Positions 1,799 to 56,880 of a DNA stretch of 64,000 nucleotides are shown piece after piece. This stretch comes from the human T2T-CHM13v2.0 reference genome, Homo sapiens. Every line of letters starts with the position of its first letter. Position 1 is the stretch's first letter. Both the position numbers and the translations under genes were made by a program. Where the stretch lies: the NCBI RefSeq assembly GCF_009914755.1, contig NC_060940.1; one strand, written 5' to 3'. The notes under the pieces were generated by a model. The model worked only from the letters and a program-made list of their open reading frames with translations. It was not told the DNA's origin and searched no databases.

Positions 1799-4317
1799 AG
1801 GGCAAGGAGCAGCCGCCTGCCTTGGCCTCCCAAAGTGCCGAGATTGCAGCCTCTGCCCGGCCGCCACCCCGTCTGGGAAGTGAGGAGTGTCTCTGCCTGG
1901 CCGCCCATCGTCTGGGATGTGAGGAGCCCCTCTGCCTGGTTGCCCAGTCTGGAAAGTGAGGAGCGTCTCCGCCCGGCCGCCATCCCATCTAGGAAGTGAG
2001 GAGCGCCTCTTCCCAGCCGCCATCACATCTAGGAAGTGAGGAGCGTCTCTGCCCGGCCGCCCATCGTCTGAGATGTGGGGAGCGCCTCTGCCCCGCCGCC
2101 CCATCTGGGATGTGAGGAGCGCCTCTGCCCGGCCGAGACCCCGTCTGGGAGGTGAGGAGCGTCTCTGCCCGGCCGCCCCGTCTGAGAAGTGAGGAGACCC
2201 TCTGCCTGGCAACCACCCCATCTGAGAAGTGAGGAGCCCCTCCGCCCGGCAGCTGCCCCGTCTGAGAAGTGAGGAGCCTCTCCGCCCAGCAGCCACCCCA
2301 TCTGGGAAGTGAGGAGCATCTCCGCCCGGCAGCCACCCCGTCCGGGAGGGAGGTGGGGGGGGTCAGCCCCCGCCAGGCCAGCCGCCCCATCCGGGAGGGA
2401 GGTGGGGGGGTCAGCCCCCCGCCTGGCCAGCCGTGCCGTCCGGGAGGGAGGTGGGGGGGTCAGCCCCCCGCCTGGCCAGCCGTGCCGTCCGGGAGGGAGG
2501 TGGGGGGGTCAGCCCCCCGCCCGGCCAGCCGCCCCGTCCGGGAGGTGAGGGGCGCCTCTGCCCGGCCGCCCCTACTGGGAAGTGAGGAGCCCCTCAGCCC
2601 GGCCAGCCACCCCGTCCGGGAGGGAGATGGGGGGGTCAGCCCCCCCACCCGGCCAGCCGCCCCGTCCGGGAGGGAGGTGGGGGGGTCAGCCCCCCGCCTG
2701 GCCAGCCGCCCCGTCCGGGAGGGAGATGGGGGGGTCAGCCCCCCGCCCGGCCAGCCGCCCTGTCCGGGAGGGAGGTGGGGGGGTCAGCCCTCCGTCCGGC
2801 CAGCCGCCCCGTCTGGGAGGTGAGGGGCGCCTCTGCCCGGCCGCCCCTACTGGGAAGTGAGGAGCCCCCCCGCCCGGCCAGCCGCCCCGTCCGGGAGGGA
2901 GGTGGGGGGGTCGGCCCCCCGCCCGGCCAGCCGCCCCGTCCGGGAGGGAGGTGGGGGTGTCGGCCCCCCGCCCGGCCAGCCGCCCCGTCCGGGAGGGAGG
3001 TGGGGGGGTCGGCCCCCCGCCCGGCCAGCCGCCCCGTCCGGGAGGGAGGTGGGGGGGGGGCCAGCCCCCCTGCCCGGCCAGCCGCCCCGTCCGGGAGGTG
3101 AGGGGCGCCTCTGCCCGGCCGCCCCTACTGGGAAGTGAGGAGCCCCTCTGCCCGGCCAGCCGCCCCGTCCGGGAGGGAGGTGGGGGGGTCGGCCCCCCGC
3201 CGGGCCAGCCACCCCGTCCGGGAGGGAGGTGGGGGGGTCGGCCCCCCACCCGGCCAGCCGCCCCGTCCGGGAGGGAGGTGGGGGGGGTCGGCCCCCCGCC
3301 CGGGAGGGAGGTGGGGGTGTCGGCCCCCCGCCCGGCCAGCCGCCCCGTCCGGGAGGGAGGTGGGGGGGGGGTCAGCCCCCCTGCCCGGCCAGCCGCCCCG
3401 TCCGGGAGGTGAGGGGCGCCTCTGCCCGGCCGCCCCTACTGGGAAGTGAGGAGCCCCTCTGCCCGGCCAGCCGCCCCGTCCGGGAGGGAGGTGGGGGGGG
3501 TCAGCCCCCCCGCCCGGCCAGCCGCCCCGTCCGGGAGGTGAGGGGCGCCTCTGCCCGGCCGCCCCTACTGGGAAGTGAGGAGCCCCTCTGCCCGGCCAGC
3601 CGCCCCGTCCGGGAGGGAGGTGGGGGTGTCAGCCCCCCGCCCGGCCAGCCGCCCCGTCCAGGAGGGAGGTGGGGGGGTCAGCCCCCCTGCCCGGCCAGCC
3701 GCCCCGTCCGGGAGGTGAGGGGCGCCTCTGCCCGGCCGCCCCTACTGGGAAGTGAGGAGCCCCTCTGCCCGGCCACCACCCCGTCTGGGAGGTGTACCCA
3801 ACAGCTCATTGAGAACGGGCCAGGATGACAATGGCGGCTTTGTGGAATAGAAAGGCGGGAAAGGTGGGGAAAAGATTGAGAAATCGGATGGTTGCCGTGT
3901 CTGTGTAGAAAGTAGAAGACATGGGAGACTTTTCATTTTGTTCTGCACTAAGAAAAATTCCTCTGCCTTGGGATCCTGTTGATCTGTGACCTTACCCCCA
4001 ACCCTGTGCTCTCTGAAACATGTGCTGTGTCCACTCAGGGTTGAATGGATTAAGGGCGGTGCAAGATGTGCTTTGTTAAACAGATGCTTGAAGGCAGCAT
4101 GCTCGTTAAGAGTCATCACCAATCCCTAATCTCAAGTAATCAGGGACACAAACACTGCGGAAGGCCGCAGGGTCCTCTGCCTAGGAAAACCAGAGACCTT
4201 TGTTCACTTGTTTATCTGCTGACCTTCCCTCCACTATTGTCCCATGACCCTGCCAAATCCCCCTCTGTGAGAAACACCCAAGAATTATCAATAAAAAAAT
4301 AAATTTAAAAAAAAAAA
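1799..4317 (+). mobile_element. SVA_F1 (MAST2-fused SVA_F) retrotransposon, 5'-truncated, antisense in IFT140 intron 4
   Basis: Alu-like segment from 1813, GC-rich VNTR ~1860-3790, SINE-R ~3790-4295, AATAAA 4290-4295, poly(A); 15-bp TSD AAATGTACACAGGTG at 1784-1798 and 4318-4332; 5' end (G)AGGGCAAGGAGCAG matches my recollection of the MAST2 exon 1 end (EGKEQ). Confidence 0.93.
1860..3790 (+). repeat. SVA VNTR (~35-50 bp GC-rich units)
   Basis: Tandem units gcccggccagccgccccgtccgggagggaggtggggggg and ctactgggaagtgaggagccc. Confidence 0.95.
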
Positions 4318-4334
4318 AAATGTACACAGGTGCA

Positions 4335-16504: not shown

Positions 16505-18160
16505 GTGACCAAGGCTGGGCGGCGGGGCTGTCATGGCGAGGCCCGGCCGGGGGGTCCTGTCGGGCGGCGCGGGAGAGCGCGGGGGGGGCGTCGCTTCCAC
16601 AGCGCCCGGTACAGCCACAACTGGCCTCAGGGCGAGGAGGCTTCTGCGTCCCCATCCCGAGACGCGAGCCGGTGCGGAGCGGGACGGGGCTGGAGGAGAC
16701 TGCGCCTCCGAGAAAAGTCCGGTCTCGTTGGAGGTTCTCGCGAAAAGGAGGCCATCCCCCTGCTTGTTGGCCCTTAGGGTAAAGTCTGGACGGCGTCGGT
16801 CCTTTCAGTGGCGAAAAGCGCTTCCCCGTGCTCGGTCGGCGTCTTGGGTGTGGAGCCCGGCGAGCGGGCGAGTTCACTCTGGTGGCCGAGTTTGTTTTGC
16901 TTGGGTCCCGGGTGGCCTGCGGGCGGACAGGTCCCTGGGCAGCGGGGTTCTCAGCCCGAGACGAGGTCTTTGGGGGTTTAGGTTTCTTGAGTGGAAAGAG
17001 GTGGGTTGAGGGGGAAGAGTGGGAAGTCTTGCCACGAAATCCCTTAAGTTGGGGTGTTTGTCGTGGGTGGTTTTGTTCTTTGGCAGAGTTTTTTTTAAAA
17101 CTAGCATGAACTCGAGATTCCCTAGACCAATTCCGACAGGAGAAAACGGCCACGGATCCTTGTGTGATCTGCACCTCAGGGTGGGGGCATCATTGCGACT
17201 TTGAAGCCATTTCCCGATCTCTCGGAAAGAGAGGTCCTCGCCCGCGTCCCTGTATTTCGTGGTTGGTGTTGGTGCCTCGATCGTGTGTTCCTTTGAAGTG
17301 GAAATGCCCCCGTTCTCAACAGTTGAGTTGAACGCAGGGTCAGTATCTGCTGAGGAATCTAATCTTCAGCGTTTTTGCTTCCTCACACGTGCCCGTCCCG
17401 GACTGTTTCTGGGCTGCAGCTCTTGCTGTGTACCTGATTGTCTGAGTTTATTTTTGAGTGGCTCTGCTTTCTGGGCTGCAGCATTTTTAGTCACTGCACT
17501 TTGTTGTTGACATTTTACAGGGCGGTGGGTAGCAAAGTTGATGCAATAATTTTATTAATTGTTGCCAAGAGTTTTAACACCATTGTCTTCTACCGCTTCT
17601 TGCACCTGGACCCGGACATAACTGGGCTGTCACTTTCCCGGGTGGTTCCAACCTGTTCCATGCAACAGGCTCCTTTGTTGCAAAAGCATTTTTAACTAGT
17701 AAATCCCCGCAGCAGCTCACATTTCCCACCCTGGGAAGAAGATTCCCAGAGACCCGGAGCTGATTATTCTTTATGTGTGTTTTAAAATAAGCAGGCGGGC
17801 CGGCGGCATTGGGCCACCATGGAGTTCCCCGTGCGGGCAGGCGAGCCCGCGCTTCTCCCGTCCCGGGGTGGATCCGGCCTCCTCTGTCCTCCTCCAGGGC
17901 CAGCTCTGGGGGCCGGCGCGTGGGGCAGGTGCGCGGGGCCCGGGAGCCCCGCGCCTTTCGGGGGGCGGGGAGGGGGTGGGACGAGGGGCTAGGGCTGGGG
18001 CTGCGGCCCGGCCGGCCGAGGCGGCGCAGGGAGCGAGGCCGGCGCGCAGGGCCAGGCCATGAGCCGCGGCCCCGCCGGGTAGGTGGCTGTGGGCGGGGCA
18101 GCGGCCCGGACCCGCAACCGTGCCCAGACCCGCGCCCGCGCCGGGGCTCCCATAGACCCC

Positions 18161-45035: not shown

Positions 45036-45619
45036 GTAAGTCCCAGTTTCCATGTGAAACATCACTTCTCTGGGTGTTTTGTGTTTATTCTCTAAAATAC
45101 AGAAGCTGAAATGCTCTCAGTGAGGACCTTCCGAGTTAAAACTTCATAACCTCTCAGTTACGTGTTCAGTCCCAACAAAAGGTGCTTGGTCCAGGGAGCA
45201 GTGACTGCGCCCAGAGCCTGTGCCTGCCCCGGGGAGGGAAGGAAGTGCCGTCTTTGGCCTCCTCCTTCCCGAGGGTCTCTGGCTGGGCGTTGTGGTCTCG
45301 ACGCAGCACTCAGGGCCCTGCTTTTTGTGCTCCTTTTCCTCCACCTTTGTGCCTGCTGTGGGGCTGGTCCCCGGCTTCTAGGGCCTCTCCTTTCCATTGC
45401 ATTTTTGTCGTGTCCTGGGCCACTTCTGACAGCTTCCCTGCCTTCTTGTGCCCTGGATGCTTCTGTCTCCAACTGGCCGCTCTCCTCCCCTCACACACCT
45501 GACTCCCAGAGGGCACATGCTCTCCTGGCCACACAAACAACCGGGCCCCTGATGGTCCAGTTGACATCTGCCCAGTTGCTGCTGTTGGGCTGCACTTCAG
45601 GGCAGGGCCCCGCCACCCT

Positions 45620-45806
45620 ACTCCACAGCCTGGGGGTTCCCTGCTTTACAGCTTGGGGAAGGTCCCCACGCCACAGCCTGGGGGGGTTCCCCACTCCGCA
45701 GCCTGGGGGTCTCCACTCCGCAGCCTGGGGGGTCCCCACTCTGGAGCCTGGGGGGGGGTCCCCGTTCCACAGCCTGGGGGTTCCCAGTGCACAGCCTGGT
45801 GGGGTT
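45620..45806 (+). repeat. GC-rich minisatellite (~22-26 bp unit ccacagcctgggggttccc)
   Basis: About 8 degenerate tandem copies. Confidence 0.8.
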
Positions 45807-53951: not shown

Positions 53952-54825
53952 TAAACACTTGATTAAAGCCTTAGGTTTTTGGGGTGATGGTAAAATCTTT
54001 GTGGGGTATTGAGACTGCATAATGCTGAAATTAGAGCTAGGACCCTTTTAAAAGGATGGGGATTGCAGCTTTGTTTACTGGGATGTGGAGATTGTGGTGT
54101 CACCCTTTTTGCCTGTCTGAGGTTGCCAGAACTGGCTGTCTCCATTAGACGCCCTCAGCAGAGGCTGCTTTTCAGCCAAACTGCGGGAGTCATCTGGAGA
54201 GTCCCTCCCACGCAGCACTCGCTTCAGACTCTTGTTCACATTTTGATCTCTAATTTTGGTCAGCATTGTATTGGAATAAGATTTTTTAAAAACTATACAA
54301 GTAATGCATAAATATAAGTCTTAAGCAATTTTCAAACAATACACAGATAAAATATAAGACCCTCTTCACCACCCCATCCTGCTCATCTCATCGAAGCTAA
54401 CCACTTACAGTCATTTCATGTGTGTCTTTCTGAATTTTTTTCTTAGTGAATTTACATAAGTAAGTGTACAGGTACAAATATAGATACATATAGAGATGAA
54501 GATGTAATTTTTTACGCATCCTTAGAATCACGCTCTGTTCTGTAGCTTTTTTCATAGACTGTTTCTTAGAAATTGAATAGCAACAGCAAATATAGAAGCA
54601 GCAACTCTCCTACCTGACGTGTGCAACTGGGAGTTGGTGAATTCCTAAAATTGGTTAAGGCAGAAAGCCGTAAAAACAAGATACACATGCCCTGAGCATT
54701 TTGTAAAACACAAGCCCATTGTCGTTCACCAGCCAGTGGGCCGCTGCCCAGAGCCATGTCTTGACTGGGGTCCACTCCTTGGAATTCAAGTTGGTTTTTC
54801 TCTCAGATCAGAAACTCCTCACAGG

Positions 54826-55940
54826 GAGGTCACATAGAGGTGGACTGAGAAGTCACAGAGGTAGACTGAGCTCACACAGAGGTCATGGAGAGGTGGATTG
54901 AGGTCACACAGAGGTCACGGAGAAGTGGACTGAGAGGTCACAGAGAGGAGGACTCAGAGGCCACAGGTCATGGAAAGGTAGATTGAGGTCACAGAGGTCA
55001 CGAAAAGGTGGACTGAGGTCACGGAGAGGTGGACTGAGGTCACACAGGTCACAAAAAGGTGGACTCAGAGGTCACAGAGTTGGACAGGTTACACAGAGGT
55101 CACACGGTGGACTGAGATCACGGAGAGCTGGACTGAGGTCACACACAGGTTATGGAGAGGTCGACTGAGAGGTCACACAGAGGTCATCTAGGGGTGGATT
55201 TAGGTCACGCACAGGTCACGGAAAGGTGGACTGAGAGGTCACGGAGAGGTGGACTGAGGTCACAGAGGTCACCTAGAGGTGAATTGTCACACAGAGGTCA
55301 TGTTGAGGTGGACTGAGGTCACACACAGGTCATCTAGAGGTGGATTGAGGTCACACACAGGTCATCTAGAGGTGGACTGAGGTCACACAGGTCATTTAGA
55401 GGTGGATTGAGGTCACACAGTTCACGGAGAGGTGGGCTGAGGTCACACAGAGGTCATGGGGAGGTGGACTGAGAGGTCACCTAGAGGTGGATTGAAGTCA
55501 CACAGAGGTAACCTAGAGGTGGACTGAGAGGTCACGGAGAGGTGGACTGAGGTCACACAGAGGTCACCTAGAGGTGGATTGAGGTCACACAGAGGTCATA
55601 GAGAGGTGGACTGAGGTCACACAGGTCACAGAGAGGTGGACTGAGAGGTCACACAGAGGTCACAGAAAGGTGGATTGAGGTCACACAGAGGTCACAGAAA
55701 GGTGGACTGAGGTCACACAGGTCATCTAGAGATGGATTGAGGTCACATGGAGGTCACGGGGAGGTGAACTGAGGTCACAGAGAGGTCACGTAGAAGTGGA
55801 TTGAGGTCACACAGAGGTCATGGGGAGGTGGACTGAGGTCACAGGTCATGTAGAGCTGGATTTAGGTCACACAGAGGTCACAGGGAGGTGGACTGAGAGG
55901 TCACGGAGAGGTAGACTGAGAGGTCATGGGGAGGAGGACT
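54826..55940 (+). repeat. ~32-bp-period minisatellite rich in AGGTCA direct repeats
   Basis: Unit approximately GAGGTCACACAGAGGTCAYGGAGAGGTGGAYT, ~35 degenerate copies. Confidence 0.93.
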
Positions 55941-56343
55941 GAGAGCTTCTGCTCTGAGGGCCCAAAGTGGGAGGACTGCACAGAGCTGGGGCAGTGGAGA
56001 GAGGGGTGGCCATCTGAGGGGACCCCAGGATAGTGGCTTTTCCAGGGATGGGACATCAGCTTGTGCCAGGCCAGTCACCAAGGCAGGAGGGCACAGCACA
56101 TTTTCTGTAAACAGCAGGTGTCCCTTGGAGTGTGAGGTGTGGTCAGGAAAGTAGCAGGATGTGCAGAGTCACCACTTCTTGTTTGTCACTGTGTCCTCCC
56201 ACTGTCCTACGCGGGCTCGAGAGGCTGGGGTGGATGCTTGGCCAGGCCCCACCTGGCCTGGCTCAGCGCCTCTCCGTGTGCTGGCCCTTCCGTCCTTCTG
56301 TTCACTCACAGGCCTCAGCGTTCCTTCAAAACTCTTTTCCCAG

Positions 56344-56429
56344 GGCCACCACTGTACGTTACAAAGGGCGGAACCTGCGGATCAAAGCGCCCATGTGCCG
56401 GGCCCTGAAGAAGCTGTGCGATCCAGATG
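56344..56429 (+). CDS. CRAMP1: CRAMP1 exon 7 (86 nt; ATTVRYKGRNLRIKAPMCRALKKLCDPD)
   Basis: Acceptor CTTTTCCCAG|, donor ATG|GTAAGT. Confidence 0.93.
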
Positions 56430-56880
56430 GTAAGTGAATGGGGCGCTCCCGGGACCAGAGGCGGTGCCCATGGTGTCCCATTCAATGATGGGCAGGCTGA
56501 GCTACCGGGTTGCTGCCACAGTTGCTTTGTGTCTGACCCTGCTTAATCCCAGGGCTGCACATGGACCACTCTTGAACTTGAAATGCTCCCTACGACCACT
56601 CAGTCAAGTTGAGCTCAGAGCCATGGCAGCAGTCAGCAGAGTGGTCGGAGGTTGTCAGGATCGAGTCTCCTATGGCCTCTCTGGACCAGTCTGTGGCCTT
56701 TGCAAACCCCTGAGCAGCTACATTGGAGTTTCTTCTTCGCTGGGGTTTCTCTGCTCTCCTTGCCTCTGTTTGCAAGGCCATCTGCTCACAGCTGATTTCA
56801 CTGGTTTTTCTGGCCCAGCCCTTGGTTTTCTACCTTAAGGTTGGGCTGCACTAAACTTTCATGGTTCTTCTGCATTGCAG

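What the first reader, a model, noticed from the sequence alone, without database searches (positions are those of the whole stretch)
54826..55940. Intronic minisatellite that is a dense, helically phased array of nuclear-receptor direct repeats (DR5/DR3/DR1)
Seen: the repeat unit contains AGGTCA-N5-AGGTCA. By hand I count 14 perfect DR5 (starts 54901, 55170, 55202, 55316, 55348, 55440, 55550, 55582, 55646, 55678, 55740, 55772, 55804, 55864), 7 DR3 (54986, 55037, 55257, 55380, 55410 with AGTTCA, 55614, 55710) and one DR1 (55836). Loss of a dinucleotide from the spacer turns DR5 into DR3 and DR3 into DR1. Many elements are 32 bp apart, about 3 helical turns. Established: DR5 is the RAR/RXR element, DR3 the VDR/RXR element, DR1 the RXR/PPAR/HNF4/COUP-TF element. 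Inference: this could be a copy-number-variable, multimerised hormone-response enhancer or a COUP-TF/TR2/TR4 repressor sink whose ligand specificity shifts by slippage, ~400 bp upstream of CRAMP1 exon 7 and within reach of the CRAMP1/IFT140 promoter.
Basis: partly seen in the sequence, partly recalled or inferred. Interest (0 to 1): 0.8.

Follow-up and report, generated by a model that had tools for sequence, protein, structure and literature searches.

The report
Intronic minisatellite full of receptor half-sites
A 1.1-kb tandem repeat inside an intron of the human CRAMP1 gene carries an unusually dense run of perfect nuclear-receptor binding motifs, but these most likely exist because one short motif was copied many times, and any hormone-related function is unproven.

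Summary
Window 54826-55940 holds 57 AGGTCA, all on the + strand.

It is a single-locus, hierarchical minisatellite. Subunits of about 11 bp (AGGTCACACAG / AGGTCAYNNRG / AGGTGGAYTG) build 32-bp units and 64/96-bp higher-order repeats. The DR5, DR3 and DR1 series comes from slippage of an embedded (CA)n run. Four of the eight short-spacer elements sit at one homologous position of a copied 96-bp block.

The array holds 14 of the 663 perfect AGGTCA-N5-AGGTCA in the genome. However, control hexamers of the same composition form comparable or larger 11-bp-period arrays elsewhere. Motif density alone is therefore not evidence of function.

No receptor occupancy, accessibility, polymorphism or primate data could be reached. 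Five papers' VNTR-QTL (expression or splicing) supplements and the paper searches gave nothing on this locus. The only functional hint is the hub's RefSeq silencer at 55137-55311, which lies inside the array.

Verdict: a real and curious feature, most likely a neutral VNTR. A nuclear-receptor silencer or sink role remains possible, at about 0.2.

The parts
54819..55940 (+). Whole minisatellite array in CRAMP1 intron 6. All half-sites lie on the + strand, which is the gene's sense strand.
   Evidence: TRF reports 54819-55920. There are 57 AGGTCA on + and 0 on -, and 89 AGGT spaced mostly 11, 10 or 12 bp apart. The + strand is 66% purine, with G 37% against C 17%.
54826..55235 (+). Older, more degenerate 5' part. 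It mixes 32-bp (A-B-C) and 21-23-bp (B-C) units and carries most of the mutated half-sites.
   Evidence: segments show AAGTCA, AGCTCA, AGGCCA, AGGTTA and AGATCA variants. TRF rows in this part have 71-95% matches at periods 11 and 21-51.
55236..55897 (+). Best-preserved core of the array, with 64-bp and 96-bp higher-order periodicity.
   Evidence: TRF gives period 64 with 10.9 copies, 81% matches and score 618, and period 96 with 4.6 copies and 81% matches.
55316..55863 (+). Four higher-order blocks of the form DR5-DR5-DR3. The last block has DR1 at the third position. The blocks start at 55316, 55550, 55646 and 55740; 55440-55549 between them was not aligned.
   Evidence: The alignment shows the structure, and pairwise identity is 87-91%. 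The short spacer sits at the same aligned position in all four blocks.
55137..55311 (.). RefSeq 'silencer' feature lying wholly inside the array. It contains 8 AGGTCA, 2 DR5 and 1 DR3.
   Evidence: The coordinates come from the hub's annotation table, and the source study was not seen.
56344..56429 (+). CRAMP1 exon 7, given for context. It starts 404 bp downstream of the array.
   Evidence: The exon is from the hub's annotation table. The sequence was read.

Best explanation
This is a single-locus intronic minisatellite of the VNTR type, built hierarchically. An AGGT-initiated unit of about 11 bp diversified into three subunits: A = AGGTCACACAG, B = AGGTCAYNNRG and C = AGGTGGAYTG(AG). A-B-C forms a 32-bp unit and B-C forms a 21-23-bp unit. 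These were then copied as 64- and 94-96-bp higher-order blocks. Subunits A and B both begin with the consensus half-site AGGTCA and A is 11 bp long, so every A-B junction is automatically a perfect DR5. A (CA)2-4 run straddles the first half-site and the spacer, and its slippage shortens the spacer in 2-bp steps to DR3 and DR1. Some of these variants were then propagated by block duplication.

The nuclear-receptor motif content is most likely an accident of which 11-mer was amplified, not the result of selection for hormone response. As DNA, the array still offers 22 consensus class-II receptor dimer sites in 1.1 kb. By established DNA-binding rules it should bind RXR heterodimers and the NR2F/NR2C orphan receptors wherever chromatin allows.

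Shown here: the anatomy, the slippage series, the block copying, the uniqueness of the locus and the genome-wide controls. Inferred: neutrality, and any receptor binding.
For: Anatomy. TRF finds periods 11, 21-23, 32, 64 and 96. AGGT-to-AGGT spacing is 11 bp in 43, 10 bp in 17, 12 bp in 8 and 9 bp in 6 of 88 intervals. The (CA)n series is shown. Four higher-order blocks share the short third spacer and are 87-91% identical.

Single locus. The array DNA matches only itself. All 9 genome-wide copies of the 17-mer lie here. All 12 matches to a 29-mer at up to 3 mismatches lie here. Both flanks are unique in the genome.

Look-elsewhere controls. Perfect AGGTCA-N5-AGGTCA occurs 663 times genome-wide, against 646 for the reversed control. 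Pairs of perfect DR5 within 4-30 bp number 7 for AGGTCA, 6 of them here. The same test on seven other hexamers of equal composition gives 20 (TGGACA, all in one 11-bp-period array at C11:115.84 Mb), 4, 3, 1, 1, 1 and 0.

The variable positions are largely the CpG of subunit B, consistent with mutational decay: spacer B is 67.8% identical to consensus, and the array has 14 CpG against 69 expected.

No human CRAMP1 VNTR report was found in the full-text searches. There were no CRAMP1 rows in the supplements of five VNTR or tandem-repeat QTL (expression or splicing) papers.
Against: The two AGGTCA hexamers are the best-kept part of the unit. They match the consensus at 388 of 397 aligned positions (97.7%), against 329 of 360 (91.4%) for subunit C and 93.2% for spacer A. 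The descriptive Fisher p is 1e-4, or 0.02 once the C/T position 30 is left out. The copies are not independent and the alignment favours the consensus, so this is only a hint of constraint.

All 57 half-sites keep one orientation and stay locally in helical phase.

A RefSeq silencer (hub table) lies entirely inside the array. It is one of only two non-promoter silencers in the 64-kb window.

Perfect consensus DR5 is the element used in synthetic retinoic-acid reporters (recalled knowledge). Some receptor binding in vitro is therefore close to certain.
Confidence: 0.7

Rival explanations
1. The array is a functional silencer or receptor sink. Orphan receptors (NR2F/COUP-TF, NR2C/TR2-TR4) or unliganded RAR-RXR would occupy the direct repeats and recruit corepressors, damping CRAMP1/IFT140 or titrating receptors. 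Strength would scale with copy number.
For: There are 22 consensus DR elements, all in one orientation. The RefSeq silencer at 55137-55311 lies inside the array and contains 2 DR5 and 1 DR3 (hub table). There is a precedent for tandem arrays of half-sites recruiting COUP-TF2/TR4 and heterochromatin factors at ALT telomeres: PMC3518223 (passages), and PMC13187458 and PMC11194075 (abstracts in the listing). The hexamers are slightly better conserved than the rest of the unit.
Against: No occupancy or accessibility data were seen. The source assay of the RefSeq feature was not verified, because the paper I suspected is not held. Control hexamers form similar arrays by chance. No expression- or splicing-QTL row for CRAMP1 appeared in the five supplements searched.
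Confidence: 0.2
2. The array is a ligand-inducible, multimerised hormone-response enhancer (retinoic acid through DR5, vitamin D through DR3). Its ligand preference would shift with slippage, acting on CRAMP1 or IFT140.
For: It has 14 perfect DR5 and 6 perfect DR3 plus one AGTTCA variant. The spacing rules for RAR-RXR (DR1, DR2, DR5) and VDR-RXR (DR3) are as stated in PMC1785376 (passages).
Against: The only functional annotation is 'silencer', not 'enhancer' (hub table). None of the 13 papers that hold both CRAMP1 and 'retinoic acid' concerns such regulation, judged by title and abstract start. The array is about 39 kb from the shared promoter. Nothing was seen that marks it as accessible.
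Confidence: 0.07
3. The array acts at the RNA level. It is a purine-rich intronic repeat with 89 sense-strand AGGT cores, 404 bp upstream of exon 7, and could act as a decoy for U1 or SR proteins and influence splicing.
For: The sense strand carries 89 AGGT and is 66% purine. The array lies close to the exon 7 acceptor (hub table).
Against: None of the 89 AGGT extends to AGGTRAG, and most have C at position +3, which is a poor donor by the recalled consensus. There was no Rfam match. There was no CRAMP1 row in the supplements of the splicing-TR study (file 1 was not searched). The hub table lists no alternative exons here.
Confidence: 0.03

Closest known systems
Classical G-rich human minisatellites / VNTRs (16p13.3 is known for them, from recalled knowledge)
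   Same: It has head-to-tail units of 21-32 bp over 1.1 kb, strand asymmetry (G 37% against C 17%), internal variant units and higher-order structure, and it occupies a single locus.
   Different: Its unit happens to carry two perfect nuclear-receptor half-sites. Copy-number polymorphism was not shown here. There is no exact PRDM9 13-mer.
CDH2 intron-1 VNTR with steroid-receptor sites (PMC12064536, abstract seen)
   Same: Both are intronic VNTRs of about two dozen units, with each unit carrying nuclear-receptor binding sites. The CDH2 repeat is proposed as a transcriptional hub.
   Different: The CDH2 repeat carries steroid-receptor (AR/GR) elements plus RBPJ and ZEB1 sites, and has binding and reporter data. 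The CRAMP1 array carries class-II direct repeats and has no binding data.
(TCAGGG)n variant telomere repeats that recruit COUP-TF2/TR4 in ALT cells (PMC3518223, passages; listing abstracts)
   Same: Both are tandem arrays of RGGTCA-type half-sites in direct orientation that create many receptor sites in a row. In ALT cells the outcome is repressive or heterochromatic.
   Different: The telomeric array has 6-bp units (DR0 register) at chromosome ends in cancer cells. Here the register is DR5/DR3/DR1 inside a gene, and receptor binding has not been shown.
Alu-DR2 retinoic acid response elements (PMC1785376, passages and table)
   Same: In both cases repeat amplification, not point-by-point selection, multiplies consensus direct repeats. 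The paper shows that some Alu-DR2 elements bind RAR.
   Different: Alu spreads by retrotransposition to more than 100,000 dispersed sites with DR2. Here amplification is local and tandem, with DR5/3/1. The array and its flanks are unique in the genome.

Membership tests
Minisatellite / VNTR | Head-to-tail tandem units of roughly 10-100 bp spanning hundreds of bases or more | tested here: met
   TRF gives periods 32, 64 and 96, with 20.4 copies at period 32, over 54819-55920.
Minisatellite / VNTR | Single locus, not a dispersed transposon family | tested here: met
   Only self matches were found. All 9 of 9 and 12 of 12 pattern hits lie in the array. Both flanks are unique. The DNA search skips simple repeats, so its sensitivity is limited.
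Minisatellite / VNTR | Copy number varies between individuals | not testable with these tools
   Only one human assembly is held. There were no CRAMP1 rows in the five VNTR-study supplements searched.
Retinoic acid / vitamin D response element (class-II nuclear-receptor direct repeat) | Two RGKTCA half-sites in direct orientation with 5-, 3- or 1-bp spacing | tested here: met
   There are 14 DR5, 6+1 DR3 and 1 DR1.
Retinoic acid / vitamin D response element (class-II nuclear-receptor direct repeat) | Receptor occupancy in cells | not testable with these tools
   No ChIP-seq or CUT&RUN data were reachable.
Retinoic acid / vitamin D response element (class-II nuclear-receptor direct repeat) | Ligand-dependent change in transcription of a linked gene | not testable with these tools
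   None of the 13 papers holding CRAMP1 and 'retinoic acid' addresses this, judged by title and abstract start.
Monomeric nuclear-receptor sites (ERR, NR5A, NR4A extended half-sites) | A-rich 5' extension, (T)CAAGGTCA or AAAGGTCA (motifs recalled) | tested here: not met
   AAGGTCA, TCAAGGTCA and AAAGGTCA each occur 0 times in the array. The 5' flanks are CAG, CTG, GAG, CAC or TTG.
Transcriptional silencer | Represses a reporter or target gene | not tested
   The only evidence is the hub's RefSeq feature at 55137-55311. Its source study was not seen, and Pang & Snyder 2020 is not held.
Transposon-derived receptor sites (Alu-DR2 type) | The motif lies inside a dispersed repeat copy | tested here: not met
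   The array and its flanks have no other genomic copies.
PRDM9-motif recombination hotspot minisatellite | CCNCCNTNNCCNC 13-mer in the unit (motif recalled) | tested here: not met
   There are 0 exact matches on either strand in the array and 12 matches with one mismatch.

The most novel reading that the evidence does not exclude
The array is a copy-number-variable and spacing-variable platform for nuclear receptors. NR2F/NR2C or unliganded RAR-RXR would load onto as many as 22 helically aligned direct repeats and silence the CRAMP1/IFT140 neighbourhood, or titrate receptors away from other sites. (CA)n slippage and block duplication would change both the dose and the DR5:DR3:DR1 mix between alleles. 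Receptor preference would then be a heritable, fast-evolving trait of this locus.
Probability: 0.1. Interest if true: 0.7.

Novelty: new member of a known kind. Interest (0 to 1): 0.35.

Why it matters
If receptors do load on it, this would be a natural multimerised DR5/DR3/DR1 element. It holds 14 of the 663 perfect AGGTCA-N5-AGGTCA in the assembly, about 2%. That would give a clean test of how tandem-repeat length and half-site spacing tune nuclear-receptor recruitment and repression in chromatin. It would also be a likely source of confusing multi-mapped ChIP-seq signal. If receptors do not load, it shows that perfect consensus sites, even two dozen in a row, can arise by tandem amplification alone. 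Control hexamers do the same.

Tried and rejected
Transposon origin or a dispersed family: rejected. The array, a 17-mer, a 29-mer at up to 3 mismatches, and both flanks are all unique to this locus.

Statistical exceptionality of the motif array: rejected by control hexamers. TGGACA gives 20 double-DR5 matches in one chr11 array. Other controls give 0-4.

Monomeric receptor sites (ERR, NR5A, NR4A) and E-box CAGGTG: 0 matches.

PRDM9 13-mer: 0 exact matches.

Coding potential: the longest stop-to-stop frame overlapping the array is 96 aa, and there are 11 frames of at least 50 aa.

Structured RNA: 0 Rfam matches at gathering score.

Literature. The searches 'CRAMP1'+'VNTR' (1 paper, on chicken), 'CRAMP1L'+'tandem repeat' (0 papers), 'minisatellite'+'AGGTCA' (3 papers, none relevant) and minisatellite/VNTR with RXR/RAR (the 15 listed hold neither 'minisatellite' nor 'VNTR') gave no report of this element.

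Supplements. There is no CRAMP1 row in PMC8275641, PMC8024321, PMC10234305 (file 1 not searched, file 4 cut when stored), PMC11701250, PMC8096271 or PMC10078293 (file 1 not searched). In PMC10234305 the IFT140 rows concern other repeats. There is no repeat-unit string. There are no coordinates beginning 16508-16513, which is my rough GRCh38 estimate of the array start derived from the IFT140 end.

Pang & Snyder 2020 is not held, so the source of the RefSeq silencer is unverified. I only read a description of the ReSE assay in PMC11761030. Earlier findings of this scan were not open. No primate, population, ChIP or accessibility data could be reached.

Full report
**Observation.** I read window 54600-56500 and scanned it by regex.

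- Between 54826 and 55940 there are 57 AGGTCA on the + strand and no TGACCT. The whole window has 80 and 20.
- Perfect DR3 occurs 6 times, plus one with AGTTCA at 55410. DR1 occurs once, at 55836.
- No other spacing from 0 to 8 occurs in the array.
- The DNA search gives 14 DR5 against 0.03 expected, and 0 of 100 dinucleotide shuffles reach 14.
- Of the 21 intervals between successive elements, 11 are 32 bp, 3 are 30 bp and 1 is 28 bp.

The excess over shuffles is what any tandem repeat gives, because the copies are not independent.

**Anatomy.**

- Tandem Repeats Finder reports the array over 54819-55920. It finds periods 32 (20.4 copies), 64 (10.9 copies, 81% matches, best score) and 96 (4.6 copies), with sub-periods 11 and 21-23.
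- Cutting at every AGGT gives 89 pieces. The spacing is 11 bp in 43, 10 bp in 17, 12 bp in 8 and 9 bp in 6 of 88 intervals.
- The pieces fall into three subunit types: A = AGGTCACACAG, B = AGGTCAYNNRG and C = AGGTGGAYTG(AG). A-B-C makes the 32-bp unit. B-C alone makes 21-23-bp units that carry no DR5.
- DR5 is therefore simply the 11-bp length of subunit A. Subunit C is a degenerate third half-site (AGGTGG).
- The + strand is the sense strand of CRAMP1. It is 66% purine, with G 37% against C 17%. CpG is depleted, at 14 against 69 expected.

**Spacing series.**

- Every element reads either AGGT(CA)nG-AGGTCA or AGGT(CA)n-GGTCA.
- In the first form, n = 3 gives DR5 and n = 2 gives DR3. In the second form, n = 4, 3 and 2 give DR5, DR3 and DR1.
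It is slippage of a CA run that straddles the first half-site and the spacer.
- The short-spacer elements are not all independent events. Four blocks, starting at 55316, 55550, 55646 and 55740, align as DR5-DR5-DR3. The short spacer sits at the same position in all four, and in the last block it is shortened once more to DR1.
- The blocks are 87-91% identical to each other. This haplotype therefore shows no very recent block duplication.

**Phasing.** AGGTCA starts have a resultant length of 0.39 at 10.5 bp. The best values are 0.53 at 10.35 bp and 0.46 at 10.6 bp. About 0.12 is expected for 57 random positions. Within 200-bp windows the value at 10.5 bp runs from 0.47 to 0.95. The array is locally in helical register and only partly so over its whole length. 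This follows from the 11/11/10-bp subunits.

**Conservation among copies.** I aligned the array to the cyclic 32-bp consensus.

| Part of the unit | Identity to consensus |
|---|---|
| Hexamer A (AGGTCA) | 97.8% |
| Hexamer B (AGGTCA) | 97.7% |
| Spacer A | 93.2% |
| Subunit C | 91.4% |
| Spacer B | 67.8% |

- The variation in spacer B is mostly C/T and G/A at its CpG, which fits deamination.
- The hexamers are better kept than subunit C: 9 of 397 mismatches against 31 of 360. With the C/T position 30 left out, subunit C has 19 of 324 mismatches.
- The copies are not independent and the alignment favours the consensus. I treat this as a weak hint of constraint, no more.

**Uniqueness and look-elsewhere.** The window is chr16:1,612,001-1,676,000 of the assembly held as G000.

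- The array DNA matches only itself.
- All 9 genome-wide copies of AGGTCACACAGAGGTCA lie in it.
- All 12 matches to a 29-mer at up to 3 mismatches lie in it.
- Both flanks are unique. The array is not transposon-derived and is not a dispersed family.
- Genome-wide there are 663 perfect AGGTCA-N5-AGGTCA, against 646 for the reversed control. The array holds 14 of them, about 2%.

I then counted pairs of perfect DR5 lying 4-30 bp apart, for AGGTCA and for seven hexamers of the same base composition.

| Hexamer | Pairs genome-wide |
|---|---|
| AGGTCA | 7 (6 in this array; 1 in a 23-bp x 2.1 repeat at C16:17,575,305) |
| AGGTCA reversed | 3 |
| TGGACA | 20 (all in one 11-bp-period array at C11:115.84 Mb) |
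| TGGACA reversed | 4 |
| GAGTCA | 1 |
| GAGTCA reversed | 1 |
| CAGGTA | 1 |
| CAGGTA reversed | 0 |

Arrays of an arbitrary hexamer in DR5 register are thus not rare. That one of them carries AGGTCA is within expectation. Motif density alone is no evidence of function.

**Other readings tested on the sequence.**

- There are no A-extended half-sites for monomeric receptors, no CAGGTG and no exact PRDM9 13-mer. There are 12 one-mismatch matches to the PRDM9 motif.
- None of the 89 AGGT extends to AGGTRAG. This argues against strong decoy splice donors.
- The longest stop-to-stop frame overlapping the array is 96 aa.
- There is no Rfam match.

**Function.** No receptor occupancy, accessibility, population or primate data could be reached with these tools.

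- The hub's table lists a RefSeq silencer at 55137-55311. It lies wholly inside the array and contains 8 AGGTCA, 2 DR5 and 1 DR3. It is one of two non-promoter silencers in the window.
- I could not see its source. Pang & Snyder 2020, which I suspected, is not held. I only read a description of its ReSE assay in passages of PMC11761030.
- This annotation fits corepressor recruitment better than a ligand-induced enhancer. A single high-throughput call inside a repeat is weak evidence.

**Literature.**

- Full-text searches found no human report linking CRAMP1 or CRAMP1L with a VNTR or tandem repeat.
- They found nothing relevant for minisatellite plus AGGTCA.
- They found no minisatellite or VNTR paper among those on RXR/RAR. 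All 15 papers listed hold neither word.
- None of the 13 papers holding CRAMP1 and 'retinoic acid' is relevant, judged by title and abstract start.
- The supplements of PMC8275641, PMC8024321, PMC10234305, PMC11701250, PMC8096271 and PMC10078293 hold no CRAMP1 row. Some files were cut or not searched.
- In PMC10234305 the IFT140 rows concern other repeats. Neither the unit string nor my rough GRCh38 coordinates occur there.
- Supplements I could not see may still list this locus.

**Comparison with known systems.**

- The kind of object is a classical G-rich minisatellite.
- As a receptor-site-bearing VNTR, its nearest described relative is the CDH2 intron-1 VNTR, which has 24 units carrying steroid-receptor sites (PMC12064536, abstract).
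- As a tandem array of RGGTCA half-sites that recruits orphan receptors, the precedent is the (TCAGGG)n variant repeat of ALT telomeres (PMC3518223, passages; abstracts of PMC11194075, PMC13187458 and PMC7691514 in the listing).
- As repeat-driven multiplication of direct repeats, the precedent is Alu-DR2. That paper counts 5,786 RGKTCA DR5 and 6,707 DR3 in the human genome and never uses the words 'tandem', 'satellite' or 'minisatellite' (PMC1785376, passages and table).
- The CRAMP1 array differs from all three in carrying perfect DR5/DR3/DR1 at a single intronic locus, and in having no binding data.

**Verdict.** This is a real, single-locus, hierarchical minisatellite. Its nuclear-receptor direct repeats are a by-product of amplifying an AGGTCA-bearing 11-mer, and its DR5/DR3/DR1 series comes from CA slippage plus block copying (confidence 0.7). 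A receptor-bound silencer or sink is possible (about 0.2). A hormone-inducible enhancer is less likely (about 0.07). The feature is a new member of a known kind, of moderate interest.

Noticed in passing
window 1849-3792 (inside the masked stretch 1806-4330, IFT140 intron): This is a large GC-rich tandem array with 40-49-bp units and 275-311-bp higher-order periods (TRF). The unit looks like the VNTR part of an SVA retrotransposon, but that name is recalled and was not tested.
   Followed up: no
window 45616-45805: A second small minisatellite lies in the same CRAMP1 intron, about 580 bp after exon 6. It has a 23-bp unit, 8 copies and 74% matches.
   Followed up: no
G000:C11:115843710-115845126: This array of about 1.4 kb is built on an 11-bp period (TGGACACTCAC-like). 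It gives 20 double 'DR5' matches for the control hexamer TGGACA. It is structurally analogous to the CRAMP1 array and served as the look-elsewhere control.
   Followed up: partly
L018 1492-1540 (G000:C16:17575305-17575344, - strand): This is the only other place in the assembly with two perfect AGGTCA-N5-AGGTCA within 30 bp. It is a 23-bp unit repeated 2.1 times, with the spacer xTTCC.
   Followed up: partly
window 55941-56040: The right edge of the array fades into degenerate unit-like sequence (GGAGGACTG..CACAGAGCTGG..GGAGAGAGGGGTGG). The array was therefore once slightly longer or has decayed at its 3' end.
   Followed up: no
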